Positions 19,760 to 63,787 of a stretch of 64,000 bases of DNA are shown in pieces. This DNA is from Bacteroidales bacterium (lineage in GTDB: Bacteria; Bacteroidota; Bacteroidia; Bacteroidales; WCHB1-69). Both the position numbers and the translations under genes were made by a program. The stretch covers positions 93,155 through 157,154 of the forward strand of contig JAFZZK010000020.1 in the NCBI GenBank assembly GCA_017615795.1. Direction: 5' to 3'. Each line of letters opens with the position of its first letter. Within the stretch, counting starts at the first letter, position 1. The notes below the pieces were generated by a model. It was not told the DNA's origin. It ran no database searches and saw only the letters and a program-made list of their open reading frames with translations.

Positions 19760-19859
19760 TTCAACAAAATTCCGCTGGACGATCACATTCCAAGGTTTAG
19801 TAAACTCGATTTCCTCTCACACCAACATATATCAATCTTACCCATCTATTTCTCTCTTT

Positions 19860-43610: not shown

Positions 43611-44498
43611 CTACAGTTCATGTTGCGCTAGAGAAAGACTCACCTTATTCCCACTTCGCGTCGGAAATACCAGCGTGGAATGTTCCTCTATAAGCAGACG
43701 TAATTGTCTCTCACTCACTATAGTCAGATCCACGTCATTCGCCAACATCATTTCAGATATCGCTGGATAGTCAGTAAGCAACCGCATCCGTTCGGTCATT
43801 GTTTGATCTGATATAATAGGAGACAGGGCAAATAGTTCCAGATTAGAGGCTGTCTCCTCAATCAGATGACTTTTCACAAAGTTTTTTTGTTTTTCATCCC
43901 CTATAAGCTCGCCAATTCCCTGCATCAAGACTTTTGGACTTGTCTTCCTTATACTTTCTGCGCACTGTGAGGCATAGCCTGCAACACCCATTCCCGTGCG
44001 CAGTCGGACAATATTCGGGTTGATGGCCGTACCCTTCTGAAGGAAAAACCACACATCGAAAATGTCACGAGGAGTGATACGTTCCCCCAAGGCACAAAGC
44101 TTATGGGCAAACATATCAGGAAGAGTCATTACCCGCACATCCGTGCCCGCCAGAGTCTTGATTTCGTAATGGTTGTCATAATGCCGTGAGGAGACCTCAA
44201 CTTTCAGCATACGGTTACCCCCACCATAATTGAGGACCAGCAAAGGACCATAAAACTTCATTGCCTCGTCATCAATCTTCCCAAAACTCAACAGCAGGTT
44301 GTGCAACGCACGGAATACACTCTCTGCTTTCGTGTCATCCAGCAAGTTGAAATCCAGATCTGTTGAAAACCTGGGCAACTGATGAAACAACATTAACGAG
44401 GTTCCACCTTTAAAGGCAAGTTGTACAGACAGCTCTTTGTCGCGGAAAATGGCAAGCAAGACTTGCATCATAAAATAACGGTGTTTTGCAATATCCAT
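43611..44498 (-). CDS. abiEii: AbiEii/AbiGii-family nucleotidyltransferase toxin (type IV TA)
   Basis: 295 aa. LAFKGGTSL and RFSTDLDF motifs. Lies 4 nt downstream of the AbiEi-like gene. Confidence 0.85.
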   Translation of the reverse strand: MDIAKHRYFMMQVLLAIFRDKELSVQLAFKGGTSLMLFHQLPRFSTDLDFNLLDDTKAESVFRALHNLLLSFGKIDDEAMKFYGPLLVLNYGGGNRMLKVEVSSRHYDNHYEIKTLAGTDVRVMTLPDMFAHKLCALGERITPRDIFDVWFFLQKGTAINPNIVRLRTGMGVAGYASQCAESIRKTSPKVLMQGIGELIGDEKQKNFVKSHLIEETASNLELFALSPIISDQTMTERMRLLTDYPAISEMMLANDVDLTIVSERQLRLLIEEHSTLVFPTRSGNKVSLSLAQHEL

Positions 44499-50550: not shown

Positions 50551-50967
50551 ATGACAATTATCCACGGCATTGGAATCAAAGATCGCCCCGTCCATAATCT
50601 CCCTGCAAATTCGAACTTGTCGGATTATGCCCGTAATAACCGAAAGGCCGGCAATATGACAGAAATCGTGTTTTGGCTTCAGGTGCACAGGAAAATGTTC
50701 CACGGGCTCGATTTTGACAGGCAGAAGGGAATTGGGAACTACATTGTTGATTTCTATGTGAAACGGCTTGGCCTTGCTGGGGAAATTGACGGCGGCTCGC
50801 ACAACGAAAAGCTGGATTACGATGCACAGCGCGACAATTTTTTGGAAGGACTTGGGTTAAGGGTGTTCCACACAACGAATTATGATGTGTTGCAACATGT
50901 GGATTTGGTGCTGGAGGATTTACGATACTTCATTGTCAAACATTACGAACACGAAGAGAATCCATAA
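50551..50967 (+). CDS. DUF559 (Vsr-like endonuclease fold) domain protein
   Basis: 138 aa. FDRQK.IGNYIVDFYV..L.LA.EIDGGSH......D..RD..L...G..V. is the typical DUF559 block. Confidence 0.8.
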   Translation: MTIIHGIGIKDRPVHNLPANSNLSDYARNNRKAGNMTEIVFWLQVHRKMFHGLDFDRQKGIGNYIVDFYVKRLGLAGEIDGGSHNEKLDYDAQRDNFLEGLGLRVFHTTNYDVLQHVDLVLEDLRYFIVKHYEHEENP

Positions 50968-51968: not shown

Positions 51969-53423
51969 TTATTTCAACAATCTGAAGAACTCAATGAGCA
52001 AGTCCCAACACATCTGGACGGTGTTGATTTCGAGTTTCTCGTCGGGAGAGTGAACGCCGCGCAGGGTCGGTCCGATGGAGACCATGTCAAGGCCGGGGTA
52101 CTTCTCAGAGAAGAGGCCGCACTCAAGGCCGGCATGTATTGCGAGCACCTGCGGGTCTTTGTGGAAAAGGTTTTTGTAGGCATCCACGAGCACCCGCAGC
52201 ACTTCGGAATTGGGGTTGGGTTCCCAGCCGGGATAACCATCGGTGGTGACCACGTCGGCCCCGATCATCCAGAAGGTGGTGGAGACTTTGTCGACGACAG
52301 CCTGCTTGCGGCTCTCCACGGAACTGCGCTGGCTGGTGGTGATGGTGATTTCATCATCCACTTTCTTGACGGAAGCAAGGTTGGTGGAGGTCTCCACGAA
52401 GCCCGGGATATCCTGCGACATGGCCTGCACGCCATGCGGACAGACGAGCAACGCGTTGAGCATGTCAATTTGGAAGGACTCTTCCAGCACCAGTTCCACC
52501 TTCTCAGCCTGCTCCAGCGTCACCATGACACCCGGGTCGGTGGTATGGAATTCTGACTTGTAGACAGCATCCATTTCCTGGACATATTGAGTGAACTCCT
52601 TCTCGCTTTGAGCGGGCACCGCCACGATGGCATAGCCTTCGCGGGCGATGGCGTTGCGCAGGTTGCCGGCTTGGATGTCGGCCACGCGCAAGTCGTAGTC
52701 CTGATAGGCATTCCAGAGCACGCGGGTAAGGAGCTTCACGGCATTGCCACGCCCCTTGTTGATGTCGTCGCCAGAGTGGCCGCCTTGCAAACCCTTGACC
52801 GTCACTTTGTAATAACGGGCATCGAAGTCCACCTTCTCATAGTCGCACTTGAGGGTGGCGATGGTGTCCTGGCCGCCGGCGCAGCCGATGAAGAACTGTC
52901 CTTCATCCTCGGAGTCGAGGTTGATGAGCATCTTGCCCGTCATGAATCCGGCTTCGAGGGCTTTGGCGCCCGTGAGCCCGGTTTCCTCGTCAATAGTAAA
53001 GAGGCATTCAATGGGACCGTGCTGCAAGTCGGGGTCGTCGAGAATGGCCAGTGCCATGGCCATGCCGATGCCATCGTCGGCGCCGAGAGTGGTACCCTTG
53101 GCCTTCAGCCATTCGCCGTCCACGTATGTTTGGATGCCATCCTTGTCGAAATCAAACGGGGTGTCTGCATTCTTCTCGCAAACCATGTCCATGTGGGCCT
53201 GGAAGATGACCGGAGTGACATTCTCCTTGCCCGGGGTTGCCGGCTTGGAGATGAGCACGTTGCCGACTTTGTCGCGCTTGGTGGGCAAACCCATTTTTTT
53301 GCCTGTGGCCTCAAGCCACTCGGATATCAAAGTCTCCTTCTTGGAAGGACGCGGAATTTTGGTGATTTCATTGAAATAGTAGAAAACCTTGGCCGGTTTC
53401 AAGCTGAGCATTTCTTCATTCAT
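51969..53423 (-). CDS. pepD: Aminoacyl-histidine dipeptidase (Xaa-His dipeptidase, M20C)
   Basis: 484 aa. P..V..YF..I..IPR.S..E and QAHMDMVCEKN, with overall PepD layout. Confidence 0.9.
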   Translation of the reverse strand: MNEEMLSLKPAKVFYYFNEITKIPRPSKKETLISEWLEATGKKMGLPTKRDKVGNVLISKPATPGKENVTPVIFQAHMDMVCEKNADTPFDFDKDGIQTYVDGEWLKAKGTTLGADDGIGMAMALAILDDPDLQHGPIECLFTIDEETGLTGAKALEAGFMTGKMLINLDSEDEGQFFIGCAGGQDTIATLKCDYEKVDFDARYYKVTVKGLQGGHSGDDINKGRGNAVKLLTRVLWNAYQDYDLRVADIQAGNLRNAIAREGYAIVAVPAQSEKEFTQYVQEMDAVYKSEFHTTDPGVMVTLEQAEKVELVLEESFQIDMLNALLVCPHGVQAMSQDIPGFVETSTNLASVKKVDDEITITTSQRSSVESRKQAVVDKVSTTFWMIGADVVTTDGYPGWEPNPNSEVLRVLVDAYKNLFHKDPQVLAIHAGLECGLFSEKYPGLDMVSIGPTLRGVHSPDEKLEINTVQMCWDLLIEFFRLLK

Positions 53424-53477: not shown

Positions 53478-53485
53478 TATCTTTG
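53478..53485 (+). promoter_or_regulatory. -7 promoter box (TATCTTTG) for the MMPL-fusion gene
   Basis: Exact TAnnTTTG. It lies inside the 1490-aa track ORF, which therefore cannot be translated from its listed start. Confidence 0.55.
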
Positions 53486-53510
53486 CCGCTTAATTATAAA
53501 CCAATATTTT

Positions 53511-56500
53511 GTGAAGGATTTTTTCCTCAATATATATCGTTTCCTTGAACGGAAAAGGGCTCTAATGTGGTCTGTTTTGGCCATTCTCACCGTGCTATTT
53601 GTCCTGAGTGCCTTGCGGTTATCCTTTGTGGAGGACATTGGCAATTTTCTTCCCAGCAGCAAACAAAACGAGCGTGTAAACTATGCCTATGCCCATTTAG
53701 GCGGTGACAACAAGATTGTAGTCAACATTGGCATGGCGGACACCACCGCAGAGCCGGACCTCAGCCTGTTGGCTGAGAGCGCCGACCTTTTGGCGGAGCA
53801 TCTCACTGAAGCCGACACTGCCGGTCTTGTCAAGGAGCTGCTATGCGGCATGGACGAAAGCCAGATTTCAGAAGTCACCACATTCATCGTCGAGAACATG
53901 CCTTACTTCCTCACGGAGGAGGATTATGCGCGCATGGACACGTTGCTCACACCGGAGCACATATCGCAACAGCTGGTACAAGACAAGCAGCTGCTCGGAT
54001 CGCCCGTGCCCATGATGCGCGATGTGCTGCAACGCGACCCACTATTCTTTTCGTCGCGTCTGCTGCAATCGCTCCAGGCTTTCCGCCCCGACGACCGCTA
54101 TCACGTGGAAGACGGCCACATTTTCGACAAGGCCGGCCGCGAGGCCCTGCTCGTGGTCACCTCCAACTTCCCCTTGAGTGAAACCCTGCACAACGGCGAG
54201 TTGCTAAAGCTCATCGACAAAGCATGCCACGACGTGGAGCAAGAGATGAAGGGACAGGTCCGCATTCACAGTTTTGGAGCCTCACAAGTGTCGCTCACCA
54301 ATTCCACACAAATCAAGCGCGACAGTTTCTTGGCGCTCGGACTGGCCTTTGTGCTCATCCTAGCTCTGCTCATCTACTATTACCGCAATGCCCGCAGCAT
54401 CGTGCTCATCTTTGTCTCCATCCTTTTCGGGGGCCTGTTCGCCATCGGTGTCATCGCCCTGTTCAAGAGCACGGTGTCGCTCATCGCCATAGGGGTAGCC
54501 TCCATCATCTTCGGCATTGCCATCAACTACCCCATCCATTTCTTGTCGCATTTCAAGCGCACGGACGACAAGGAGCAGATCATCCGCGAGATTGTCACGC
54601 CCTTGCTGATTGGCAACATCACTACGGTGGGCGCGTTTTTGAGCCTGCTGTTCATCAGCTCACCCGCAATGAAGGATCTCGGACTATTCGCCGCCCTCCT
54701 ATTGGTGGGCACCATCCTGTTCGTGCTGATATTCCTGCCTCATCTGATGGGCAACCACTTTCAGGGCAAGGACCGCGATTTGGCTTTCCGGCGCGTGGCG
54801 GAGGCACGTCCCGAGAACATCCCGGGCATCTTCTGGATAGTGCTGGTCATCACCATCGTGCTTGCCTTCTTCGGCAAGCGCACCTCCTTCGACACCAATA
54901 TGCACCATATCAACTACATGACCAAAGAGCAGCAGCAGGAGTTCAACAAATTGCTTGCCGAAGCCGACACCACGGTACAGACCCTGTACTGTATAGCCGA
55001 GGGAAAGAACCTGCAAGAGGCCCTGATACACAATGAGACGGTGCAAGAACAATTAATGCGGCTCACGGAAGCCGACAGCATCCAAAACGTCAGCGGCATC
55101 GGCACCTATCTGCCCTCACAAATGCTGCAACAAAAGCGCATTGCACGCTGGAACGATTTCTGGGCAGAACGCCGCGATAAATTCTGCCACGATCTCGACG
55201 CAGCCGCCACTGCCAACGGTTTCCGTCCTGAAGCCTTCCAACCCTGCAAGGAGATCGTGATGAACACTTTCACCTCCCAACACGACGAACACTTCAGCAT
55301 CATCCGCCAACAATTAGCCGCCAACTATATCAGCGAGGAAAACGGACGGGTGATGATCTACAACATCCTGCAAGTCAAGAAAGAGAATGCTGAATCCATA
55401 GAGCAGGCACTCAACAATGGCGACTCAGAGCATTTCGCCTTTACCGAGAGCTCCATCGCGGCCCGCCTTGTGGATGCCCTCTCCCACGACTTTGACTACG
55501 TGCTCTACATCTGCGGCATCATCGTCTTCGTATTCCTCTTTTTCACCTTCGGACGCTTAGAAATCAGCATCTTGGCTTTCCTGCCGCTCTTCACTGCCTG
55601 GATTTGGATCTTAGGCATCATGGGCATTGCTAACCTTCATTTCAACATCGTCAACATCATCTTGGCCACTTTCATCTTCGGCATGGGTGACGATTATTCC
55701 ATTTTTGTCACGGAAGGCCTGATCCACGAATACACCTACGGGCGCAAGATGCTGTCGCAGTTCAAGAACAGCATCATACTGTCGGCCTCCATCATGTTCA
55801 TCGGCATCGGCATGCTGATTTTTGCCAAGCATCCCGCCCTGCGCTCTTTGGCGCAAGTCACGGTCATCGGCATGCTCACTGTCGTGCTGATGGCATATAT
55901 CATTCCGCCTGTGGTCTTCAAGTGGCTGACCACGTCAAAGGGCAAGCTCCGCAAACATCCCGTCACTTGGAAAAACATCCTCTCCGACCTCATCGCCTTC
56001 CCCTATTTCTTCCTTGGCGTATCGGTGCTTTCCCTCGGTGGTTTCTTCCTGCTCCGCATAGGAGGGCGTACCGACAAGCACAAACTTTTATATCACAAGT
56101 TATTGCGGCATCTCTTGGAGTCGACGGCCCGAATCATTCCCAACTCAACCTACAAGATTCTCAATCCAAACGGGGAGGCCTTTGTGAAACCCGCCATCAT
56201 CATCAGCAACCACCAGTCGCATTTCGACCTGCTCTACCTGCTCTCCCTGACACCCAACGTCATTGCCCTGACCAACGACTGGGCTTGGAACATGCCCCTT
56301 TACCGTCGCATCTTACGCAACGGCGACTATCTCCCTGCCTCCTACGGGATGGACTCCAACCTTCCCAAATTGAAAGCCATGGTGGACAAAGGTTACTCCA
56401 TCCTCATCTTCCCCGAAGGGACACGGTCGGTTGACAAATCCATCCTGCGGTTCCATCAGGGTGCTTTCTATCTTGCTGAGGAACTGGGACTTGATATCCT

Positions 56501-57059
56501 GCCAATCGTCACCCACGGCATCGGGGACATATTCCCGAAGCACGACCCTTTCATCCACAAGGGCGACGTCACCATCTCCATCCGGGAGCGCATCCCGGCC
56601 AACGACGAGCGTTTCCGTGCCGGCAAGAGTGCCTTGGAGACCGCCCGTGCCTTCCGTCAGTATTATATTGAGGAGTACGATGAAATGAGAGACCGTTTCG
56701 AGACAATGGGCTATCTTTCCGATTTAGTGCAAGACAACTACATATACAAAGGGAAAAACGTGGAGAACGGCTGCCGCCGCAAGTTATCCCAGTTATGCTG
56801 GTTAGGCAATGCCTTAGACCAGGTGCCACAAGGCAAACGGGTACTCTATAAAAACTGCGGCAATGGCGAGCTTTCCCTGATGACTGCCCTCTACCGCCGC
56901 GACCTGGTTGTCACGGCCTACGACCCCGATCCTGACAGCATCGACATCGCCTCACACTGTGCCGCCGTGCCCGACAACCTGCACTACACGCACAAACTCC
57001 CGCAAGAGACAAACTTCGACCATACTATTGACGAACTCGACATTCTAGACCAAGCATGA
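53511..57059 (+). CDS. Tri-domain fusion: MMPL/RND-type transporter + lysophospholipid (PlsC-type) acyltransferase + class I SAM methyltransferase-like domain
   Basis: Start proposed at the in-frame GTG 53511 (VKDFFLNIYRFLERKRAL...); the first ATG is at 53565. There are two 5-6 TM bundles with large loops. The acyltransferase has NHQSHFD (HX4D) and FPEGTRS. The C-terminus VLYKNCGNGELSL...DLVVTAYDPD resembles methyltransferase motifs I and II. Confidence 0.8.
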   Translation: MKDFFLNIYRFLERKRALMWSVLAILTVLFVLSALRLSFVEDIGNFLPSSKQNERVNYAYAHLGGDNKIVVNIGMADTTAEPDLSLLAESADLLAEHLTEADTAGLVKELLCGMDESQISEVTTFIVENMPYFLTEEDYARMDTLLTPEHISQQLVQDKQLLGSPVPMMRDVLQRDPLFFSSRLLQSLQAFRPDDRYHVEDGHIFDKAGREALLVVTSNFPLSETLHNGELLKLIDKACHDVEQEMKGQVRIHSFGASQVSLTNSTQIKRDSFLALGLAFVLILALLIYYYRNARSIVLIFVSILFGGLFAIGVIALFKSTVSLIAIGVASIIFGIAINYPIHFLSHFKRTDDKEQIIREIVTPLLIGNITTVGAFLSLLFISSPAMKDLGLFAALLLVGTILFVLIFLPHLMGNHFQGKDRDLAFRRVAEARPENIPGIFWIVLVITIVLAFFGKRTSFDTNMHHINYMTKEQQQEFNKLLAEADTTVQTLYCIAEGKNLQEALIHNETVQEQLMRLTEADSIQNVSGIGTYLPSQMLQQKRIARWNDFWAERRDKFCHDLDAAATANGFRPEAFQPCKEIVMNTFTSQHDEHFSIIRQQLAANYISEENGRVMIYNILQVKKENAESIEQALNNGDSEHFAFTESSIAARLVDALSHDFDYVLYICGIIVFVFLFFTFGRLEISILAFLPLFTAWIWILGIMGIANLHFNIVNIILATFIFGMGDDYSIFVTEGLIHEYTYGRKMLSQFKNSIILSASIMFIGIGMLIFAKHPALRSLAQVTVIGMLTVVLMAYIIPPVVFKWLTTSKGKLRKHPVTWKNILSDLIAFPYFFLGVSVLSLGGFFLLRIGGRTDKHKLLYHKLLRHLLESTARIIPNSTYKILNPNGEAFVKPAIIISNHQSHFDLLYLLSLTPNVIALTNDWAWNMPLYRRILRNGDYLPASYGMDSNLPKLKAMVDKGYSILIFPEGTRSVDKSILRFHQGAFYLAEELGLDILPIVTHGIGDIFPKHDPFIHKGDVTISIRERIPANDERFRAGKSALETARAFRQYYIEEYDEMRDRFETMGYLSDLVQDNYIYKGKNVENGCRRKLSQLCWLGNALDQVPQGKRVLYKNCGNGELSLMTALYRRDLVVTAYDPDPDSIDIASHCAAVPDNLHYTHKLPQETNFDHTIDELDILDQA

Positions 57060-58555
57060 ACCAGAACAAATACGACATCGCGATACTGGGCACCGGCCTC
57101 GGAGGGTTGGTCTGCGGCTACATCCTCAGCAAGAATGGCTTCAAAGTGCTGCTGTTGGAGAAGGAATCCCAGATTGGGGGATGCCTGCAGACTTTCCGCC
57201 GTTTCGGCATCAAGTTCGACACTGGCATGCACTACATCGGCAGCATGCTGGAGGGGCAAATCCTGCACCGCCTGTTCGATTACCTGCGCCTGACCGACCG
57301 CGTGCCGCTACAACGGCTCGACGAGCAGGGCTACGACCTCTTCTCCATCGCAGGGCGACAATACCGGTACGCCTCCGGCTACGACGCTTTTGTGGAGACG
57401 CTGGCCGAGAGCTTCCCCCACAACCATCATGACATTGAAAAATACGTGGCCGGATTACGCGCCATTGCAAATGCATCCCCCCTTTACAACCTCCGCAAGG
57501 TGGAGGATAACGTGTTCATCGAGGCCGACTACATCAAGACGAGTGTCAACGATTTCATTGCCGGCATCACTGACAACCGCGAGTTGCAGAACGTACTGGC
57601 CGGCAACCTGCCCTTGTATGCCGGAGTAAAGGACAAGACACCAACCTACATCCACGCGTTGATCAACAACTTCTATATCCAAAGCGCATGGCGCATCATT
57701 GGGGGCAGTGACATCATTGCGAACTCGTTAGCCGACTCCATCCGTGCCTTCGGAGGGGAGATCCGCACCAAAAACGAGATCGTCGAGATTGTATGCGATG
57801 ACAAGCACGCCGTGGGCGTGCGACTCGCCACTGGTGAATATGTCGAAGCCGACTCCTTCATCTCCAACATCCACCCGCAGGCCATGCTGAACCTGCTCGA
57901 CACGCATCTTATCCGCAAGGCATACCGCGCCCGCATCAACGACCTTGACAACACCATCGCCAACTTCACCCTCTATATCAAGTTCAAGGAGAAAGCCACG
58001 CCCTATCTCAACTACAACTACTATTACTACGAAAACGACGACGTATGGCAGTCCACTGACCGGCAAGCCGGCGACAAACTGCGCAGTTATCTGTTCATGC
58101 ACCAATGTGCCGAGCAAAACCAGAAATGGGCGCAAAGCGCTGAAATGATCGGCTACATGAAGTTCGATGAGGTGGCGCAATGGGCAGACACCACACGCGG
58201 GCACCGCGGCGAAGCCTACAAGGAGTTCAAGGAACGCACCGCCGAGCACTATCTTAGCATCTTGGAACAATCGTTTCCCGGCATCCGCAGCACGATTGAG
58301 GGTTACGAAACCTCCTCTCCCCTCACCTATCGCGACTACACCGCTACGCAAAACGGTTCCATGTACGGCATCATCCGCGACAAGAACTTCCCCACACAGA
58401 CACTCGTTTCGCAACGCACTAAAATCCCCAATCTATTCCTAACCGGCCAGAACATCAACTCGCACGGCATCCTCGGCGTCACCATCGGAGCAGCCCTCAC
58501 CTGCGCCGAGTTTCTGGGGCTCAACAAAATCATTGATGAAATCGAGAGTTACTGA
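57056..58555 (+). CDS. FAD-dependent oxidoreductase, phytoene-desaturase (CrtI)-like
   Basis: 499 aa. N-terminal dinucleotide fold YDIAILGTGLGGLVCGYILSKNGFKVLLLEKESQIGG. ATGA overlap with the upstream stop. Confidence 0.8.
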   Translation: MNQNKYDIAILGTGLGGLVCGYILSKNGFKVLLLEKESQIGGCLQTFRRFGIKFDTGMHYIGSMLEGQILHRLFDYLRLTDRVPLQRLDEQGYDLFSIAGRQYRYASGYDAFVETLAESFPHNHHDIEKYVAGLRAIANASPLYNLRKVEDNVFIEADYIKTSVNDFIAGITDNRELQNVLAGNLPLYAGVKDKTPTYIHALINNFYIQSAWRIIGGSDIIANSLADSIRAFGGEIRTKNEIVEIVCDDKHAVGVRLATGEYVEADSFISNIHPQAMLNLLDTHLIRKAYRARINDLDNTIANFTLYIKFKEKATPYLNYNYYYYENDDVWQSTDRQAGDKLRSYLFMHQCAEQNQKWAQSAEMIGYMKFDEVAQWADTTRGHRGEAYKEFKERTAEHYLSILEQSFPGIRSTIEGYETSSPLTYRDYTATQNGSMYGIIRDKNFPTQTLVSQRTKIPNLFLTGQNINSHGILGVTIGAALTCAEFLGLNKIIDEIESY

Positions 58556-58591
58556 AAAATAAAAACAGAGTCTTAATTCAGAACATTTTAT

Positions 58592-58599
58592 TATCTTTG
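58592..58599 (+). promoter_or_regulatory. -7 promoter box (TATCTTTG), internal promoter before the radical SAM gene
   Basis: Exact TAnnTTTG, 44 nt upstream of the ATG. Confidence 0.5.
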
Positions 58600-58642
58600 C
58601 ATTTTCAAAATAAAAACAAATTTTAATCACACATAGCCCACA

Positions 58643-59947
58643 ATGAAACTGAAACTCATCTATCCCAAATGGAACAAGCTGCCTGGCCAAACCACTTTCA
58701 ACCTGCCGCCGCACGGTCCCGTGGTCTTCGCCGCCACACTGCCGGAATACGTCGATGTCTCCTTCACTGACGAGAATGTAGAGGCTCTCGACATGGACGA
58801 GGAATGCGACGTGGTGGCCATCAGCATGATGCTCACGACGCAGGTAAAACGCGGATGGGCCATTGCCGACGCCTATCGTGCCAAGGGTATTCCCGTGATG
58901 TTCGGAGGCATCTCCACCATGTTGCACGCCGAGGAGACCCTGCAACATGCCGACTCCGTCTTCCTTGGTGAATCTGAAGGGCGCATGGAGCAAGTGATGG
59001 ATGACCTTCGGAACCACAAGCTCAAGAAAGTCTACAACTTTATGGGGCATCAGCCCGACATCGCCTTGGTAGGCCCGGCCCGTCGTGACCTCTATAAACG
59101 CGAGCTTTACAACCACAAGGGCGTGCAGATGGTCGACCTCTTCCACGCTTCCCGCGGATGCCGCTTCAGCTGCTACCCCTGCGCCGTCTCATACCTCGGC
59201 GGACGCTGCTTCCGTCCAAGGCCCATCGACAAGACCATCGCCGACCTGGAGACCATCGACAACAACCGTCTCTTCATCGTCGACAACTCCTTGGCGCAGA
59301 ACAAACAATGGGAAATGGACCTCTTCCGCGAGATGATCCCCCTCAAGAAGAAGTGGATCAGCCATACCATCGAAGACGACCCGCAAGTGCTCGACCTCGC
59401 CGCCCAAGCCGGTGCGTGGTACGTGTACCAAGCCGTCTATGACACCTCCGACTACATCAAGGAGCGCGTGAAACGCTATCACGACTACGGCATCGGCGTG
59501 GAAGGCACCATCCTGTTCGGCCTTGACAACCAAACCGAGGACGACATTCTCCGCCTCATCGACTTCCTCCTCAAAATCGACCTCGACCTCGCCGAGTTCA
59601 CCATCCTCGCCCCCTTCCCGCACACCAAGGCTTACGACGATCTCATGCGACAAGGGCGCATCTTCGACCACGACTGGGACCACTACAACGCCGGACAGGT
59701 CGTCTACCAGCCCAAGCACATGAGCCCCGAACGCCTGCAGGAACTCTATGAATACGCCTGGCACGCCTTCTACCAGGACGAGACACAGGAGGAGAAAATG
59801 TTCAAACTCTTCACACAGGTCATGCTCCGCGAAATGGAGGACGGCACCTACCGCCCCCGCAACCGGAAACTCGCCAACAAGAGTTTCGGCAAGGACGTCG
59901 ACCGCAGCAAGAGCCATTTCAACGAATTTCAAACAAAAGCACAATAA
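58643..59947 (+). CDS. B12-binding-domain radical SAM protein
   Basis: 434 aa. N-terminal Rossmann-like cobalamin-domain layout (DVVAISMM...GIPVMFGG). CxxxCxxC cluster motif ASRGCRFSCYPC. Confidence 0.8.
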   Translation: MKLKLIYPKWNKLPGQTTFNLPPHGPVVFAATLPEYVDVSFTDENVEALDMDEECDVVAISMMLTTQVKRGWAIADAYRAKGIPVMFGGISTMLHAEETLQHADSVFLGESEGRMEQVMDDLRNHKLKKVYNFMGHQPDIALVGPARRDLYKRELYNHKGVQMVDLFHASRGCRFSCYPCAVSYLGGRCFRPRPIDKTIADLETIDNNRLFIVDNSLAQNKQWEMDLFREMIPLKKKWISHTIEDDPQVLDLAAQAGAWYVYQAVYDTSDYIKERVKRYHDYGIGVEGTILFGLDNQTEDDILRLIDFLLKIDLDLAEFTILAPFPHTKAYDDLMRQGRIFDHDWDHYNAGQVVYQPKHMSPERLQELYEYAWHAFYQDETQEEKMFKLFTQVMLREMEDGTYRPRNRKLANKSFGKDVDRSKSHFNEFQTKAQ

Positions 59948-59956
59948 TCCATATTC

Positions 59957-60316
59957 ATGAAAGTACCCGAAAGATACTACGACGAAATTTTTGCTTTTGC
60001 CGGGCAGTGGGACATGCCCAGCAGCTGCGGACTGAAAATCATCCGCAAGCCCGAGAAGACCTACGTGATTGTCACGGAACTCTATCAGGACAACCCCGGC
60101 ACGTCCGTGACATACGCAGGCGTGTCGCTGGCCAACCAAATCTGTGAAAAGAAAGGGCTCAACCTCGCCGACATCACGTATGTGGAATGCAACCCGAACA
60201 CCAATTCCAAACTCTCGTTCTATGACGAAGAATATTTCGAAGTCACCTTTGTTGAAGGCGTACCGCCCCAATACCGACAACTCGACAAGGAAGAGGTGAA
60301 AGCCATGTTGGAATAG
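59957..60316 (+). CDS. Hypothetical small protein in the lipid cluster
   Basis: 119 aa, 9 nt after the radical SAM stop. No motif recognised. Confidence 0.5.
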   Translation: MKVPERYYDEIFAFAGQWDMPSSCGLKIIRKPEKTYVIVTELYQDNPGTSVTYAGVSLANQICEKKGLNLADITYVECNPNTNSKLSFYDEEYFEVTFVEGVPPQYRQLDKEEVKAMLE

Positions 60317-60349
60317 TCCCAAACACCATCCTCAAAGAACCAAACGACA

Positions 60350-61207
60350 ATGAAAAGACTCATACAGATAATCTTATTGGTACTGATGGCGGGCTGCGCT
60401 TCATCCCAGCCCAAGCCGATGGCCCTGTGGAAAAATGTGTCCGGCATGAAGGGCAAGCCCACCAAATTGTATGCCTATCCTGCACCCAAGGAGAACAACC
60501 ACGGCTATGTGGTCATCATCTGTCCGGGCGGAAGCTACGCCCACACCATGGGCATCGCCACCGAGGGCTTTGCCGTGGCTGAATGGCTCAACAGCCAAGG
60601 CATCAATGCCTTCGTGCTCAAGTACCGTACTGGTTCACAAGGCTATCACCATCCTGCCATGTTGGAGGATGTGCAGATGGCCATCCACTATGTGCGCGAG
60701 CACGCCAAAGAGTACGGCTACGACCCGCACAAGCTCGGCGTGATGGGCTTCTCCGCCGGCGGGCATCTCGCTCTCATGAGCGGATCCTTGTCCAAAGAAA
60801 ACCACATCTCCAAGTATGGATTCAAGGACAACATCTCGCTGCGCCCCGACTTCGTCGTGCCCATCTATCCTGTTGTCACCATGAAGGGCGACATCGTGCA
60901 TCAGCGTTCCCGCAAAAACCTGCTCACCCGCAAACGCACCCCCGAGATGGAGACCAAGTTTTCCATGGAGCTGAACATCCCGCGCGACATGCCCCCCACC
61001 TTTGTGGCCACCGCCAAGGACGACCCCGTGGTGGACTATCGCAACAGCGTGCAACTCGACCATTCTCTCAGCAAGGCTCAAATACCGCACCAATTCATGC
61101 TCTTCGAGACGGGCGGCCATGGCTACGGCATGAGCGAGAAACTTGCCCCGGAAGCCGGCAAATGGAAGAACACCTTCCTCAAATGGTTAGGATCTCTAAA
61201 ACTATAA
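60350..61207 (+). CDS. Alpha/beta-hydrolase (esterase/lipase) lipoprotein
   Basis: Lipobox VLMAGC. The HGGG-like stretch reads CPGGSY. Nucleophile elbow GFSAGGH. C-terminal His (GGHGYG). Confidence 0.8.
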   Translation: MKRLIQIILLVLMAGCASSQPKPMALWKNVSGMKGKPTKLYAYPAPKENNHGYVVIICPGGSYAHTMGIATEGFAVAEWLNSQGINAFVLKYRTGSQGYHHPAMLEDVQMAIHYVREHAKEYGYDPHKLGVMGFSAGGHLALMSGSLSKENHISKYGFKDNISLRPDFVVPIYPVVTMKGDIVHQRSRKNLLTRKRTPEMETKFSMELNIPRDMPPTFVATAKDDPVVDYRNSVQLDHSLSKAQIPHQFMLFETGGHGYGMSEKLAPEAGKWKNTFLKWLGSLKL

Positions 61208-61294
61208 TGATTCCTGATGCAACTGCCAAAATCGATGGAGCAGGAATCCCTACAATATTATAATATATAGTATCGGCCCTAAAAACAGACTCCC

Positions 61295-62599
61295 ATGAAC
61301 TTCATCCCGGACATAGAATTCCAGCCCTGCGAGGTTATCAAGGCCTTCCAAGAGGAAAAACTGCGCGAACACATCGCCTATCTGCAGGCCTTCTCTCCCT
61401 TTTACAAAAAAATGTTTGCCGAGAACCATATCGACTCGATGAAAATACAACACATCGAGGATCTGCGGCACATCCCGTTCACTGACAAGAAAGACCTGCA
61501 GCTGCACAACTGGGAGTTCCTGTGCGTGAAAAAACACCGCATAATCGACTACATCACCACATCGGGCACATTAGGCGACCCTGTGACTTTCGCCTGCACC
61601 GACAGCGATTTGGAGCGATTAGCCTACAACGAAGCCATCTCCTTTGCCTGTGCGGGACTGAAGCCCGGCAATGTGCTGCAACTAATGACCACCATGGACA
61701 AACGCTTCATGGCGGGCTTGGCTTATTTCTTGGGATTAAGAAAGTTGGGTGCCGGCGTCATCCGCGTCGGCAACGGCATCCCCGAGTTGCAATGGGACAC
61801 CATCCAGCGCATCCAGCCCGACACGGTCATGTGCATCCCATCCTTCATCCTGCGCCTCATCGAGTATGCCGAAGAACACGGCATCGACTACAAGAACTCC
61901 TCCATCAAGCGCATCATTGGTATCGGGGAAGGGCTGCGTGACCAGCATTTCGAACTCAACTCATTGGGCAAGAACATCAAAGACAAATGGGACGTGCAAC
62001 TCTTCGCCACCTACTCCTCCACGGAGATGTCGGCCACCTTCTCGGAATGCGAGTACGGTTGCGGCGGGCACCACCATCCGGAGTTGCTCATTGTGGAAAT
62101 CATCGGCGATGATGACGAACCCGTTCCCGACGGCGAAGTCGGAGAGGTTGTGGTCACCACCCTTGGAATCGAGGGCATGCCCCTGCTGCGATTCCGCACA
62201 GGCGACATGGCCTGCATCCACCCCGAGCCGTGCCGTTGCAGGCGCCAGACCTTCCGCATCAGCCCCATCGTGGGCCGCAAGAACCACATGATCAAGTACA
62301 AGGGCACAACCCTCTATCCACCCGCACTCACCGAAGTGCTGACCAACACCGACTACGTCGAGAACTACTATATCACCATCGACACCAATCCCAACACCGG
62401 CACCGACGAGGTGACCATCACCATTGGACTGCGTCACAACCCCGAGTTTGATGTCGTCAAAGACATCAAGGACCGTTTCCGCGCCAAGGTGCGTGTGGCA
62501 CCTGACATCCGCATTGCGGACGTGGACGACGTGCGCAAGGTCAATTTCCCCGCCATGAGCCGCAAACCCGTCACCCTCATCGACAACAGAAAGCACTAA
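61295..62599 (+). CDS. Adenylate-forming enzyme, phenylacetate-CoA ligase (PaaK)/F390-synthetase-like
   Basis: 434 aa. TSGTLGDPVTF (P-loop-like AMP motif), YSSTEM and GRKNHMIKYKGTTLYP (equivalent to GR.DD....G.N..P). Confidence 0.8.
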   Translation: MNFIPDIEFQPCEVIKAFQEEKLREHIAYLQAFSPFYKKMFAENHIDSMKIQHIEDLRHIPFTDKKDLQLHNWEFLCVKKHRIIDYITTSGTLGDPVTFACTDSDLERLAYNEAISFACAGLKPGNVLQLMTTMDKRFMAGLAYFLGLRKLGAGVIRVGNGIPELQWDTIQRIQPDTVMCIPSFILRLIEYAEEHGIDYKNSSIKRIIGIGEGLRDQHFELNSLGKNIKDKWDVQLFATYSSTEMSATFSECEYGCGGHHHPELLIVEIIGDDDEPVPDGEVGEVVVTTLGIEGMPLLRFRTGDMACIHPEPCRCRRQTFRISPIVGRKNHMIKYKGTTLYPPALTEVLTNTDYVENYYITIDTNPNTGTDEVTITIGLRHNPEFDVVKDIKDRFRAKVRVAPDIRIADVDDVRKVNFPAMSRKPVTLIDNRKH

Positions 62600-62620
62600 A
62601 TATTTTCCACAACCACGGAA

Positions 62621-63787
62621 ATGAAAGATCTATTTCCAAACACCAGACCATACAACGACAGCGAAATCCCTGCCGCCGTGGCACGCGTCGCCTCCAACCC
62701 GTTCTTCGACACGATCGTCAAGTACCTTTTTCCCGACACCTCCGTGGAAAAGTTCCGGCAAGAGTTTCTCCAAATCACCACCATTGACGAGTTTCAAGAG
62801 AAAGTGATGCTGAAGGCCATCGGGAACATCATCCAACGCACCTGCACAGACTTCACCGAGGAGGGTGTCGGCCTCTTGGTTCCTGACCGCCGTTACACCT
62901 TTATCGCCAACCACCGCGACATCCTGCTGGATGCTGCATTGTTGCAGATTGTCCTGAAACAAAATCATCTCCGCACTTCGGAAATCACGTTCGGCAGCAA
63001 TCTGATGCAAGGCGACATCGTCATCGACATCGGCAAGATGAACAAGATGTTCCGCATAGAGCGCGGCGGCACTGTGCACAGCTTCTACAAAAGCTCGATG
63101 GAGGTCTCCTCCTATATGCGCTATGCCGTGACAGAAAAGGGCGAGTCCACATGGATTGCCCAACGCAATGGACGGACCAAGGATGGCTACGACCGCACGG
63201 AAAACGCCGTGCTCAAAATGCTGTCCATCAGCAGTCAGAAGTCCTTCCAAGAAAACTTGGCCGAGATGAACATCACACCTGTGGCCATTTCCTACGAATA
63301 CGAGCCCTGCGATTTTCTGAAGACACAGGAGTTGTATATCTCCCAATATCAAAAATACATCAAAGAACCCGGAGAGGATCTTCGCAGCATCCTGAAAGGC
63401 GTCACACAGGAAAAAGGCCAGGTACACATCGCCGTCACCCCGCCTGTTACGGCAGAAGAGCTGGCCGACTGTGACAATTACGAGAAGAACCTCAAGTTCG
63501 AACGTCTGGCACAAATCATCGACCAACGCATAACAGACCACTACAAACTGTGGAAGACCAACCACATCGCCTACGACTTGTTGCATCAAAGCCAGCGCTA
63601 TGCCGACCAATACACCGCTGCTGACGCGGATGCTTTTGTGCGCTATATGGAAAGTGGCCTACAGGGGCTTTCAGGCGAAAGAGACGAACTACGGAACATT
63701 TTCCTGAAAATCTACGCCAATCCCATCACAAACAAAATAGACAACGCTTCAAGCACGACAACGGAATGGAAAACGAACAATTTATAG
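62621..63787 (+). CDS. PlsC-family acyltransferase with extended C-terminal domain
   Basis: 388 aa. HX4D motif NHRDILLD and a downstream RNGRTKDG block. Confidence 0.75.
   Translation: MKDLFPNTRPYNDSEIPAAVARVASNPFFDTIVKYLFPDTSVEKFRQEFLQITTIDEFQEKVMLKAIGNIIQRTCTDFTEEGVGLLVPDRRYTFIANHRDILLDAALLQIVLKQNHLRTSEITFGSNLMQGDIVIDIGKMNKMFRIERGGTVHSFYKSSMEVSSYMRYAVTEKGESTWIAQRNGRTKDGYDRTENAVLKMLSISSQKSFQENLAEMNITPVAISYEYEPCDFLKTQELYISQYQKYIKEPGEDLRSILKGVTQEKGQVHIAVTPPVTAEELADCDNYEKNLKFERLAQIIDQRITDHYKLWKTNHIAYDLLHQSQRYADQYTAADADAFVRYMESGLQGLSGERDELRNIFLKIYANPITNKIDNASSTTTEWKTNNL

What the first reader, a model, noticed from the sequence alone, without database searches (positions are those of the whole stretch)
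53478..63787. A 10-kb same-strand cluster resembling an uncharacterised lipid tailoring/export pathway without any ketosynthase or ACP
**Genes.** Seven + strand genes lie between pepD and obg:
- MMPL-acyltransferase-methyltransferase fusion;
- CrtI-like flavoprotein (ATGA-coupled to the fusion gene);
- B12-binding radical SAM enzyme (CRFSCYPC);
- a 119-aa unknown protein 9 nt later;
- secreted alpha/beta-hydrolase lipoprotein (GFSAGGH);
- PaaK/F390-synthetase-like adenylating enzyme (TSGTLGDP, GRKNHMIKYKG);
- a second HX4D acyltransferase (NHRDILLD).

Gaps after the radical SAM gene are 9, 33, 87 and 21 nt. Promoter boxes sit at 53478 and 58592.

**Interpretation.** Exporter, lysophospholipid acyltransferases and an acyl-adenylating enzyme recall the attachment and export half of aryl-polyene/flexirubin-type clusters. 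The polyketide/fatty-acid synthase half is absent here. In its place are a desaturase-like flavoprotein, a cobalamin radical SAM enzyme and a methyltransferase domain. This suggests activation of a pre-formed acid, its transfer to a glycerolipid or lysolipid, modification by desaturation and C-methylation (or other radical chemistry), and export. I know of no characterised product for this gene set.
Basis: partly seen in the sequence, partly recalled or inferred. Interest (0 to 1): 0.65.

Follow-up and report, generated by a model that had tools for sequence, protein, structure and literature searches.

The report
Back half of split flexirubin-type cluster
The seven genes are the tailoring, attachment and export half of a flexirubin/aryl-polyene pigment-lipid gene cluster whose ketosynthase/ACP half lies on another contig of the same rumen Bacteroidales genome, so the pathway is largely ordinary apart from an uncharacterised, very conserved radical-SAM/small-protein pair that anaerobic Bacteroidales have inserted into it.

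Summary
All seven + strand genes, their spacings and two Bacteroidetes-type TATCTTTG promoter boxes are at the stated coordinates.

The cluster is not a ketosynthase-free pathway.
- The ligase passes NCBIfam's equivalog model for FlxY, the flexirubin 4-coumarate-CoA ligase.
- The exporter/acyltransferase fusion and the CrtI-like flavoprotein match, by annotation and gene order only (sequences not compared), flxU and flxV of the Chitinophaga flexirubin cluster.
- In 40 of 49 related species loci that carry the exporter/acyltransferase gene, it lies directly downstream of ACP-KS-CLF-LolA-dehydratase-GT2.
- Only the window's own clade lacks that front half at this position.
- "Orphan" front halves that stop exactly after GT2 exist in this lineage. 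One has NCBI protein accessions about 400 numbers from the window's proteins, under one locus-tag prefix, so it is almost certainly in the same MAG.

What remains uncharacterised is a B12-domain radical SAM enzyme plus a 119-aa protein with no family or fold match. They are adjacent in 64 of 80 species loci, and the radical SAM enzyme is far more conserved than its neighbours.

The methyltransferase tail is a truncated remnant, and the second acyltransferase has an H-X5-D motif, not HX4D.

The parts
53478..53485 (+). TATCTTTG, Bacteroidetes-type -7 promoter box upstream of g1
   Evidence: Exact TAnnTTTG match in the pepD-g1 intergenic region. Function as a promoter is inferred from the consensus only.
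53565..57059 (+). g1: FlxU-type fusion. RND/MMPL exporter (about 1-800), HX4D lysophospholipid-type acyltransferase (NHQSHFD, about 875-985), and a truncated methyltransferase-like remnant at the C-terminus.
   Evidence: PF03176 MMPL 49 bits and PF01553 65 bits. HAE3/HpnN-like hits. MTase tail at E = 0.18 only and shorter than in L056 and L079. The gene caller gives 1164 aa. [quoted passage not shown]
57056..58555 (+). g2: FlxV-type FAD flavoprotein of the CrtI/CrtD/carotenoid-isomerase (RetSat-like) family, ATGA-coupled to g1
   Evidence: PF01593 74 bits. CrtD and carotenoid-isomerase models match far below their cut-offs. ATGA overlap with g1. [quoted passage not shown] Duplicated or fused in many relatives.
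58592..58599 (+). TATCTTTG, second -7 promoter box, 44 nt upstream of g3
   Evidence: Suggests that g3-g7 can be transcribed separately (inferred).
58643..59947 (+). g3: radical SAM enzyme with an N-terminal B12-binding-type domain; chemistry unknown
   Evidence: PF02310 34.2 bits (cut-off 32.1). C173-x3-C177-x2-C180 is invariant. No NCBIfam model is near its cut-off. 78-99% identical across Bacteroidales, with omega about 0.03. Nearest solved relatives by profile are AprD4 (6fd2, 4e-21) and QCMT/MgmA (9ccb, 5.5e-17).
59957..60316 (+). g4: 119-aa protein of unknown function, obligate neighbour of g3
   Evidence: No Pfam or NCBIfam hit. 1549 homologues, all unnamed or annotated 'hypothetical protein'. 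Directly follows the radical SAM gene in 64 of 80 species loci. AlphaFold model pLDDT 82.5; no PDB fold match with E < 0.01.
60350..61207 (+). g5: lipoprotein alpha/beta-hydrolase esterase (BD-FAE / acetyl-esterase family), predicted extracytoplasmic
   Evidence: PF20434 BD-FAE 102 bits. PaaX/AxeA1-like hits below cut-offs. Signal peptide with lipobox LMAGC and a GFSAGG nucleophile elbow. Present in 54 of 80 loci.
61295..62599 (+). g6: FlxY, PaaK/F390-synthetase-type aryl-CoA ligase (4-coumarate-CoA ligase of flexirubin biosynthesis)
   Evidence: NCBIfam NF053551 FlxY_rubin equivalog, 690 bits against a cut-off of 520, full length. C. pinensis FlxY activity on 4-coumarate was shown in vitro.
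62621..63787 (+). g7: divergent lysophospholipid-acyltransferase-like protein (invariant NHRDIxLD, NGRTKDG)
   Evidence: PF01553 18.8 bits, below the cut-off. No PDB hit. hhalign against the g1 acyltransferase domain aligns motifs I, III and IV, but with probability 23% and E = 9e-4 only. NCBI names the identical protein 'acyltransferase'. Overlaps the obg start by 22 nt.

Best explanation
The seven genes are the distal half of a split flexirubin/aryl-polyene (APE) type II-PKS-like gene cluster of a rumen Bacteroidales bacterium.

**Front half (another contig of the same genome).** It encodes a tyrosine ammonia-lyase, KR, KS, ACPs, KS/CLF, ApeI/ApeP-type dehydratases, a thioesterase, a FlxJ-type methyltransferase, an LpxL-like acyltransferase, an SMR-type membrane protein, LolA and a GT2.

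**Proposed pathway (inferred by analogy).**
1. The ammonia-lyase makes 4-coumarate.
2. g6 (FlxY) converts it to 4-coumaroyl-CoA, the starter unit.
3. The front-half PKS extends it to an ACP-bound aryl polyene.
4. g2 (FlxV-type flavoprotein) reduces or isomerises a double bond of the chain.
5. The acyltransferase domain of g1, g7 and the front-half GT2 assemble the polyene onto a lipid or glycolipid anchor, as in APE lipids.
6. The RND/MMPL part of g1, with LolA, moves the product to the outer membrane.
7. The lipoprotein esterase g5 remodels it outside the cytoplasm.

**Extra module.** g3 and g4 form a tailoring module found in anaerobic Bacteroidales, inserted where aerobic flexirubin clusters carry flxW and flxX. 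They most likely perform an oxygen-independent radical modification of the polyene, its aryl head or its lipid partner. C-methylation is the leading guess; dehydration or C-C chemistry is not excluded.

**Shown versus inferred.** Shown here: gene identities, synteny, the split, and co-residence of the two halves. Inferred: every catalytic step, the product and the role of g3/g4.
For: **Gene identities**
- g6 passes the FlxY equivalog cut-off (690 against 520). FlxY is a demonstrated 4-coumarate-CoA ligase.
- The C. pinensis cluster runs flxL-M-N-O-P-Q-R-S-T(GT2)-U(exporter + acyltransferase + MTase fusion)-V(RetSat-like)-W-X-Y. This is the same order as the Bacteroidales layout F14-ACP-KS-KS-SMR-LolA-DH-GT2-g1-g2-[g3-g4-g5]-g6-g7.

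**Synteny**
- 40 of 49 species loci with g1 have GT2 immediately upstream. The exceptions are the window's clade and three truncated contigs.
- Neighbours in relatives are ApeI-like and ApeP-like dehydratases, an ACP, an APE-type KS (PRK09185), a LolA2_flexi-like protein, and a FlxA tyrosine ammonia-lyase at 848 bits against a cut-off of 700.
- In Tannerella the radical SAM gene abuts DarB, DarG and DarH. L082 carries a FlxJ methyltransferase.

**The split**
- Front halves that end exactly after GT2 are seen in L093-L096.
- L093 and L094 have the highest tetranucleotide correlation of all loci to the window's non-cluster DNA (0.93-0.94).
- L097 (front half) and L004 (identical to window g5-g7) come from the same sample, ERZ28653797.
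- NCBI accessions: g2, g3, g6 and g7 are MBO4503886, 887, 890 and 891. The front half is MBO4504290-4504307, including locus tag J5730_05740. That tag implies about 1148 preceding features in the assembly, and the window proteins lie only about 406 accessions earlier.

**Selection**
- All seven genes are under purifying selection within the split clade (omega 0.02-0.2).

**Known APE chemistry**
Against: - No product has been isolated from any Bacteroidales cluster of this type.
- g1-FlxU and g2-FlxV orthology rests on published annotation and gene order. The C. pinensis sequences could not be fetched, so no sequence comparison was made.
- Co-residence of the two halves is deduced from accession and locus-tag numbering, sample co-occurrence and composition. 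The assembly itself was not read.
- pepD of the window is not identical to any NCBI protein, so the window may come from a sister strain of that MAG.
- The second promoter box before g3 suggests some functional autonomy of the g3-g5 module. So do loci where the radical SAM, 119-aa and esterase genes occur without other cluster genes nearby (L016, L021, L023).
- Some full clusters lack g3 and g4 altogether (L088).
Confidence: 0.8

Rival explanations
1. First reader's model. This is a self-contained, PKS-independent pathway. The ligase activates a pre-formed aromatic or fatty acid, for example plant-derived hydroxycinnamate released by the esterase g5. Acyltransferases put it directly on a glycerolipid. 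The flavoprotein and the radical SAM enzyme modify it, and the MMPL domain exports it.
For: - No KS or ACP in the 64-kb window or in 10 kb downstream.
- The seven genes stay intact and under purifying selection in a clade where they are detached from the PKS genes.
- g5 belongs to the BD-FAE feruloyl/acetyl-esterase family and is extracytoplasmic, and the habitat is the rumen.
- FlxY accepts several aryl-propanoid acids in vitro.
Against: - The same MAG encodes a complete front half with its own tyrosine ammonia-lyase.
- The detached arrangement is confined to one clade, against 40 of 49 contiguous clusters.
- g1, g2 and g6 are ordinary flexirubin-cluster members.
Confidence: 0.07
2. The g3-g4(-g5) module is functionally separate from the aryl-polyene branch. 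It might serve the dialkylresorcinol partner or another envelope lipid, and it is only co-located with the flx-type genes.
For: - A separate promoter box lies before g3.
- In Tannerella the radical SAM gene sits beside DarB, DarG, DarH and an ABC transporter rather than beside g1 and g2.
- The radical SAM, 119-aa and esterase genes occur without other cluster genes within 10 kb in L016, L021 and L023.
- Full clusters without g3 and g4 exist (L088).
- The radical SAM enzyme is much more conserved than the cluster around it.
Against: - In most loci the module is embedded between flxV-type and flxY-type genes on one strand with short gaps.
- DAR genes also belong to flexirubin biosynthesis, so this would still be the same pathway family.
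- No DAR genes were seen near the window's two loci.
Confidence: 0.12

Closest known systems
Flexirubin polyene cluster of Chitinophaga pinensis (flxA-flxY, Cpin_1853-1877) and Flavobacterium johnsoniae (Fjoh_1075-1110 region)
   Same: - Same gene order for flxL-M-N-O...Q...S-T-U-V...Y.
- FlxY and FlxA equivalog models are passed.
- FlxU-type exporter/acyltransferase/MTase fusion and RetSat-like FlxV.
- LolA and GT2 present.
- Tyrosine-derived aryl starter.
   Different: - flxW (C45 Ntn hydrolase), flxX (PPTase), flxK (halogenase) and flxP (deacetylase) were not seen.
- In their place are a B12-domain radical SAM enzyme, a 119-aa protein, a lipoprotein esterase and an extra LPLAT-like gene.
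- The MTase tail of the fusion is truncated.
- The cluster is split over two loci in this clade.
- The hosts are strict anaerobes of gut, rumen and mouth.
- DarA and DarB were not located for this genome.
Proteobacterial aryl-polyene (ape) clusters and their APE lipids (E. coli CFT073, Xenorhabdus doucetiae apeA-R)
   Same: - Type II PKS with KS/CLF, two ACPs and ApeI/ApeP dehydratases (Pfam families of that name hit the neighbours).
- LPLAT acyltransferases, a glycosyltransferase, an RND/MMPL exporter (ApeM) and a LolA-like carrier.
- The product is a membrane lipid carrying the polyene.
   Different: - Starter supply uses TAL plus a PaaK-type FlxY ligase rather than ApeH.
- Exporter and acyltransferase are fused.
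- No radical SAM enzyme or CrtI-family flavoprotein is described in the ape cluster.
B12-domain radical SAM enzymes (class B methylases such as QCMT/MgmA, TokK, HpnR; non-cobalamin AprD4; ladderane-associated TIGR04072)
   Same: - N-terminal Rossmann-type B12-binding domain plus a CxxxCxxC radical SAM core.
- Profile matches to AprD4 and QCMT.
- Weak hits to lipid-associated models (TIGR04072, HpnJ, HpnR).
   Different: - All NCBIfam scores are far below their cut-offs (best 56 against 251).
- The next relatives outside the orthologue group are only about 35% identical.
- The two nearest solved relatives do different chemistry (diol dehydration without cobalamin, and C-methylation), so the reaction cannot be transferred.

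Membership tests
Flexirubin / aryl-polyene type II-PKS-like biosynthetic gene cluster | APE-type KS + CLF, ACP(s), KR and ApeI/ApeP-type dehydratases encoded by the organism | tested here: met
   Absent from the window. Present as a block, MBO4504290-4504307, under the same locus-tag prefix and accession series as the window's proteins. Pfam ApeI-like and ApeP-like families, ketoacyl-synt and PP-binding hit the block.
Flexirubin / aryl-polyene type II-PKS-like biosynthetic gene cluster | Aryl starter supply: tyrosine ammonia-lyase (FlxA) and aryl-CoA ligase (FlxY) | tested here: met
   g6 scores 690 bits against a cut-off of 520 for NF053551 FlxY. A Lyase_aromatic gene heads the front half. 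The L029 homologue scores 848 against 700 for the FlxA model.
Flexirubin / aryl-polyene type II-PKS-like biosynthetic gene cluster | Attachment and export set: LPLAT acyltransferase(s), GT2, RND/MMPL exporter, LolA-like carrier | tested here: met
   g1 has MMPL plus PF01553. GT2 and LolA are in the front half.
Flexirubin / aryl-polyene type II-PKS-like biosynthetic gene cluster | All genes physically clustered at one locus | tested here: not met
   In the window's clade, pepD and other unrelated genes precede g1. The cluster is contiguous in 40 of 49 other species loci. Splitting is also known for C. pinensis, whose DAR genes are elsewhere, so this is not disqualifying.
Flexirubin / aryl-polyene type II-PKS-like biosynthetic gene cluster | Sequence orthology of g1 and g2 to FlxU and FlxV | not tested
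   Rests on the published annotation and gene order only.
Flexirubin sensu stricto (aryl polyene esterified to dialkylresorcinol) | DarA/DarB dialkylresorcinol genes in the genome | not tested
   DarB, DarG and DarH lie beside the radical SAM gene in Tannerella loci. None was seen within the flanks of this lineage's two loci.
Flexirubin / aryl-polyene type II-PKS-like biosynthetic gene cluster | Production of a polyene pigment or lipid | not testable with these tools
   Needs culture or heterologous expression, followed by LC-MS and UV-vis.
Cobalamin-dependent (class B) radical SAM methyltransferase | CxxxCxxC [4Fe-4S] motif and N-terminal B12-binding domain | tested here: met
   C173, C177 and C180 are invariant. 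PF02310 scores 34.2 against a cut-off of 32.1, which is marginal. PF04055 is below its cut-off.
Cobalamin-dependent (class B) radical SAM methyltransferase | Membership of a functionally defined subfamily, or demonstrated cobalamin binding and methyl transfer | tested here: inconclusive
   The best NCBIfam hit scores 56 against a cut-off of 251. The nearest solved relative, AprD4, does not bind cobalamin; the next, QCMT, does.
LPLAT / PlsC-type acyltransferase (g7) | HX4D motif I, EGTR-type motif III and a Pfam PF01553 match | tested here: inconclusive
   Motif I is NHRDIxLD, which is H-X5-D and invariant in 51 sequences. PF01553 scores 18.8 against 23. hhalign to the g1 acyltransferase domain gives probability 23% and E = 9e-4, with motifs I, III and IV aligned.
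Class I SAM-dependent methyltransferase (C-terminal tail of g1) | Significant match to a methyltransferase profile over a complete Rossmann fold | tested here: not met
   Methyltransf_25 and MTS match at E = 0.18 and cover only the first 50 or so profile positions. The tail ends about 75 residues after motif I.

The most novel reading that the evidence does not exclude
The radical SAM/119-aa pair (g3/g4), conserved in more than 570 Bacteroidia species, is an anaerobe-specific tailoring system. It would install a modification unknown in aerobic flexirubins or proteobacterial APE lipids, for example methylation of an unactivated carbon, a dehydration, or a C-C link on the polyene lipid. That would make it the first radical SAM step in aryl-polyene biosynthesis, with the 119-aa protein as a new-fold partner or substrate carrier. 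The resulting lipid would be an abundant, unstudied envelope component of gut, rumen and oral Bacteroidales.
Probability: 0.4. Interest if true: 0.55.

Novelty: new variant of a known kind. Interest (0 to 1): 0.33.

Why it matters
Aryl-polyene clusters are among the commonest biosynthetic clusters reported for host-associated Gram-negative bacteria. The products of the Bacteroidales versions have not been isolated. This analysis has three consequences.
- An apparently PKS-less "lipid" cluster can simply be one half of a split APE cluster. Cluster callers that need a KS to seed a region may miss or truncate it.
- The Bacteroidales subtype is defined precisely: the flx order with a radical SAM, 119-aa and esterase insert and an extra acyltransferase.
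- The radical SAM/119-aa pair stands out as the one uncharacterised and unusually constrained component. Knockouts could be attempted in cultivable carriers, for example a Muribaculaceae or Draconibacterium isolate, or Tannerella forsythia ATCC 43037 for the radical SAM gene alone.

Tried and rejected
- **Literature.** Full-text searches combining flexirubin or aryl polyene with radical SAM, cobalamin or phytoene desaturase found nothing. Searches on Bacteroidales, rumen or Tannerella gave only generic BGC surveys.
- **Solved structures.** Single-sequence PDB searches found nothing for g3 or g7 and only weak Rossmann-region hits for g2. A profile of g7 orthologues also found nothing.
- **Possible replacement of the radical SAM enzyme.** The 453-aa protein that occupies the radical SAM position in L088 is a secreted GYSQG lipase-like protein with no similarity to g3 or g4.
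- **First KS-anchored look-ups.** P0405, P0416, P0409 and P0419 returned only full contiguous clusters. Split front halves appeared only in the 60-65% identity group.
- **Shared flank between front halves and the window.** None was found. The only link was an M14 peptidase gene shared between L093 and clade member L007 at 80% nucleotide identity.
- **Esterase feeding the ligase.** I considered that g5 supplies plant hydroxycinnamates to FlxY in place of a TAL. I did not adopt this as the main model, because the front half has its own TAL.

Full report
**1. What is in the sequence**

The region holds seven + strand ORFs:
- g1 53565-57059
- g2 57056-58555
- g3 58643-59947
- g4 59957-60316
- g5 60350-61207
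- g6 61295-62599
- g7 62621-63787

The flanks are pepD on the minus strand (51969-53423) and obg, which starts at 63766 and overlaps the end of g7. g1 and g2 overlap in ATGA. TATCTTTG, the Bacteroidetes -7 box TAnnTTTG, occurs at 53478 and at 58592. These are the only + strand matches in the region, and both are intergenic.

Profile searches gave the following:
- g1: an RND/MMPL transporter fused to a PF01553 acyltransferase.
- g2: a CrtI/CrtD/carotenoid-isomerase family flavoprotein.
- g3: a B12-binding domain with a CxxxCxxC radical SAM core.
- g4: no match in any library.
- g5: a BD-FAE-family esterase with a lipoprotein signal peptide.
- g6: a PaaK/F390-type ligase.
- g7: a sub-threshold acyltransferase match.

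- The methyltransferase tail of g1 has only an E = 0.18 match to the first third of a methyltransferase profile. It ends about 75 residues after the glycine-rich motif.
- g7's invariant motif is NHRDIxLD, which is H-X5-D.

**2. Identity of the gene set**

g6 scores 690 bits against a cut-off of 520 on NCBIfam NF053551. This is the equivalog model for FlxY, the flexirubin-pathway ligase shown in vitro to make 4-coumaroyl-CoA.

The published table of the Chitinophaga pinensis flexirubin cluster lists, in order:
- flxL (condensing enzyme), flxM (ACP), flxN and flxO (KS)
- flxP, flxQ (LolA), flxR, flxS (dehydratase), flxT (GT2)
[quoted passage not shown] - flxW, flxX, flxY

So g1, g2 and g6 correspond to flxU, flxV and flxY in architecture and order. 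The sequences themselves could not be compared.

**3. Synteny across species**

A scan of one genome per species, using conserved radical-SAM peptides, found at least 574 species with a relative. The best 80 loci were kept. They are mainly uncultured Bacteroidales and related Bacteroidia, and include:
- Tannerella forsythia
- Muribaculaceae
- Prevotellaceae
- Rikenellaceae
- Dysgonamonadaceae
- Draconibacterium

tblastn and ORF clustering show a canonical layout:

F14 - ACP - KS - KS/CLF - small SMR-type membrane protein - LolA - dehydratase - GT2 - g1 - g2 (single, double or fused) - g3 - g4 - g5 - g6 - g7

Profile searches identify the upstream genes as follows:
- an ACP
- an APE-type KS (PRK09185)
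- a degenerate KS (CLF)
- an ArnE/F-like membrane protein
- a LolA2_flexi-like carrier
- ApeI-like and ApeP-like dehydratases
- a polyprenyl-phosphate-type GT2

Other flexirubin genes also appear in these loci:
- A FlxA tyrosine ammonia-lyase scores 848 against a cut-off of 700.
- A FlxJ-family methyltransferase is present in L082.
- In Tannerella, DarB, DarG and DarH lie next to the radical SAM gene.

Of 49 loci with g1, 40 have GT2 directly upstream. The nine exceptions are six members of the window's own clade and three truncated contigs.

The seven genes are therefore the back half of a Bacteroidales version of the flexirubin/aryl-polyene cluster.

**4. Where the ketosynthase half is in this organism**

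The window (64 kb) and 10 kb downstream contain none of the front-half families. The genes upstream are unrelated:
- an AbiEii toxin
- an ECF sigma fusion
- a Fib_succ_major protein
- glutamate dehydrogenase
- DUF559
- a NUDIX/NrtR regulator
- pepD

Searching with the fused KS-CLF of the nearest contiguous cluster gave two kinds of hit. Close hits lay in complete clusters. Hits at 60-65% identity lay in 'orphan' front halves, with this layout:

TAL - KR - KS - ACP - LpxL-like acyltransferase - FlxJ-type MTase - ApeP dehydratase - thioesterase - KS - (F14) - ACP - KS/CLF - SMR - LolA - ApeI dehydratase - GT2

Unrelated genes follow. These front halves stop at exactly the point where the window's cluster begins.

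Three lines of evidence tie them to the window's genome.
- **Composition.** L093 and L094 have the highest tetranucleotide correlation of all fetched loci to the window's non-cluster DNA (0.93-0.94), with the same GC content.
- **Sample.** Front-half contig L097 and back-half contig L004 (identical to the window over g5-g7) come from the same metagenome, ERZ28653797.
- **Accession numbering.**
  - The window's g2, g3, g6 and g7 are identical to MBO4503886, 887, 890 and 891.
  - Front-half proteins are MBO4504290 (FabG), 291 (KS), 293 (acyltransferase, locus tag J5730_05740), 294 (MTase), 297 (KS), 300 (KS-CLF), 304 (LolA), 306 (GT2) and 307.
  - Accessions follow gene order in both blocks.
  - Locus tag 05740 means about 1148 features precede it in that assembly. 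The window's proteins are only about 406 accessions earlier.
  - Both blocks therefore belong to one MAG, on different contigs (longest 164 kb and 68 kb).

All seven back-half genes are under purifying selection within the split clade (omega 0.02-0.2). The cluster is split, not decayed.

**5. How it most likely works**

The steps below are inferred from the characterised flexirubin and APE systems.
1. TAL makes 4-coumarate.
2. g6 activates it as the CoA thioester starter.
3. The front-half type II PKS builds the ACP-bound aryl polyene, and the FlxJ-type enzyme methylates the ring.
4. g2, a RetSat/CrtISO-like flavoprotein, probably reduces or isomerises a chain double bond rather than desaturating.
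5. The acyltransferase domain of g1, the divergent LPLAT-like g7 and GT2 attach the polyene to a lipid or glycolipid anchor, as in the GalNAc-phosphoglycerol APE lipids.
6. The MMPL part of g1, with LolA, delivers it to the outer membrane.
7. g5, an extracytoplasmic esterase, may remodel the product. It occupies the niche of the polysaccharide deacetylase FlxP.

For g7, hhalign aligns motifs I, III and IV with the g1 acyltransferase domain, but with only 23% probability.

**6. The part that is not explained**

g3 and g4 have no counterpart in the C. pinensis/F. johnsoniae table, and none is described for the proteobacterial ape cluster.
- They are adjacent in 64 of 80 loci and have their own promoter box.
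- g3 is strikingly conserved: 78-99% amino-acid identity where its neighbours fall to 35-75%, with omega about 0.03.
- Its orthologue group is narrow. The next relatives are only about 35% identical.
- No NCBIfam model comes near its cut-off.
- The nearest solved relatives by profile are AprD4, a diol dehydratase that does not bind cobalamin, and the glutamine C-methyltransferase QCMT. Methylation is therefore only a guess.
- g4 has 1549 homologues, all unnamed or annotated 'hypothetical protein'. Its confident AlphaFold model (pLDDT 82.5) has no meaningful PDB match.
- The pair is accessory. Some complete clusters lack it (L088). In a few lineages it travels with the esterase alone, and in Tannerella the radical SAM gene sits beside the DAR genes.

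**7. Verdict**

The inference of a PKS-independent pathway was not.

The cluster is a new variant of a known kind. I put 0.8 on the identity as the back half of a flexirubin/APE-type cluster. I put about 0.4 on the radical SAM/119-aa pair performing a new tailoring reaction on the polyene lipid.

Interest is moderate-low overall. It is carried by the very conserved, uncharacterised radical SAM pair and by the abundance of these clusters in gut, rumen and oral Bacteroidales.

Noticed in passing
window 58643-59947; loci L005-L084: The radical SAM protein is 78-99% identical across families of Bacteroidales, while the genes around it drop to 35-75%. Omega is about 0.03 against 0.06-0.2 for its neighbours. 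Such constraint is unusual for a tailoring enzyme and is unexplained.
   Followed up: partly
L096 11172-11621; L097 8711-9160: An IS200-type (Y1_Tnp) transposase gene is inserted between the SMR-type membrane gene and lolA inside the front half. This front half belongs to the same MAG as the window.
   Followed up: no
L088-L090 about 18038-20890: A cluster variant lacks the radical SAM and 119-aa genes. In their place it carries a 453-aa secreted GYSQG lipase-like protein with no Pfam match, and its CrtI-type gene is a distant paralogue (30% identity to g2).
   Followed up: partly
L027 417-6159, L028, L033 (Tannerella, including T. forsythia ATCC 43037): The radical SAM gene lies beside DarB (StlD/DarB ketosynthase), DarG, DarH-like and ABC-transporter genes rather than beside flxU/flxV-type genes. 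L027 also has two FlxY paralogues, the 119-aa gene and a TAL on the opposite strand.
   Followed up: partly
L038, L040, L041, L043, L045-L049, L052, L053 (fused); L056, L059, L060, L074-L084 (tandem): The CrtI/FlxV-type gene is duplicated in tandem or fused into a protein of about 995 aa in many lineages. The window has a single copy.
   Followed up: no
L071, L076: Termite-gut MAGs labelled Treponema sp. carry the radical SAM/119-aa pair at about 80% identity to the Bacteroidales proteins. This indicates either horizontal transfer or mis-binned contigs.
   Followed up: no
L006, L007, L009; L093 21476-22295: In a sub-clade with a 96-97% identical radical SAM protein, the locus lacks g4-g7 after the radical SAM gene; L006 and L009 show g1-g2-g3, whereas the L007 contig starts at the radical SAM gene. 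In L007 the radical SAM gene abuts an M14 peptidase gene. Its homologue (80% nucleotide identity) lies 7 kb from an orphan front half in L093, which suggests repeated rearrangement around these loci.
   Followed up: partly
window 43611-44498 (-), 50551-50967 (+): An AbiEii-type toxin gene (type IV toxin-antitoxin) and a DUF559 (Vsr-like endonuclease fold) gene lie a few kb upstream of the cluster boundary.
   Followed up: no
whole window: TAnnTTTG occurs 44 times against 29.7 expected from shuffles (0 of 100 shuffles reach 44), mostly in intergenic regions. This is consistent with Bacteroidetes-type promoters throughout the window.
   Followed up: no
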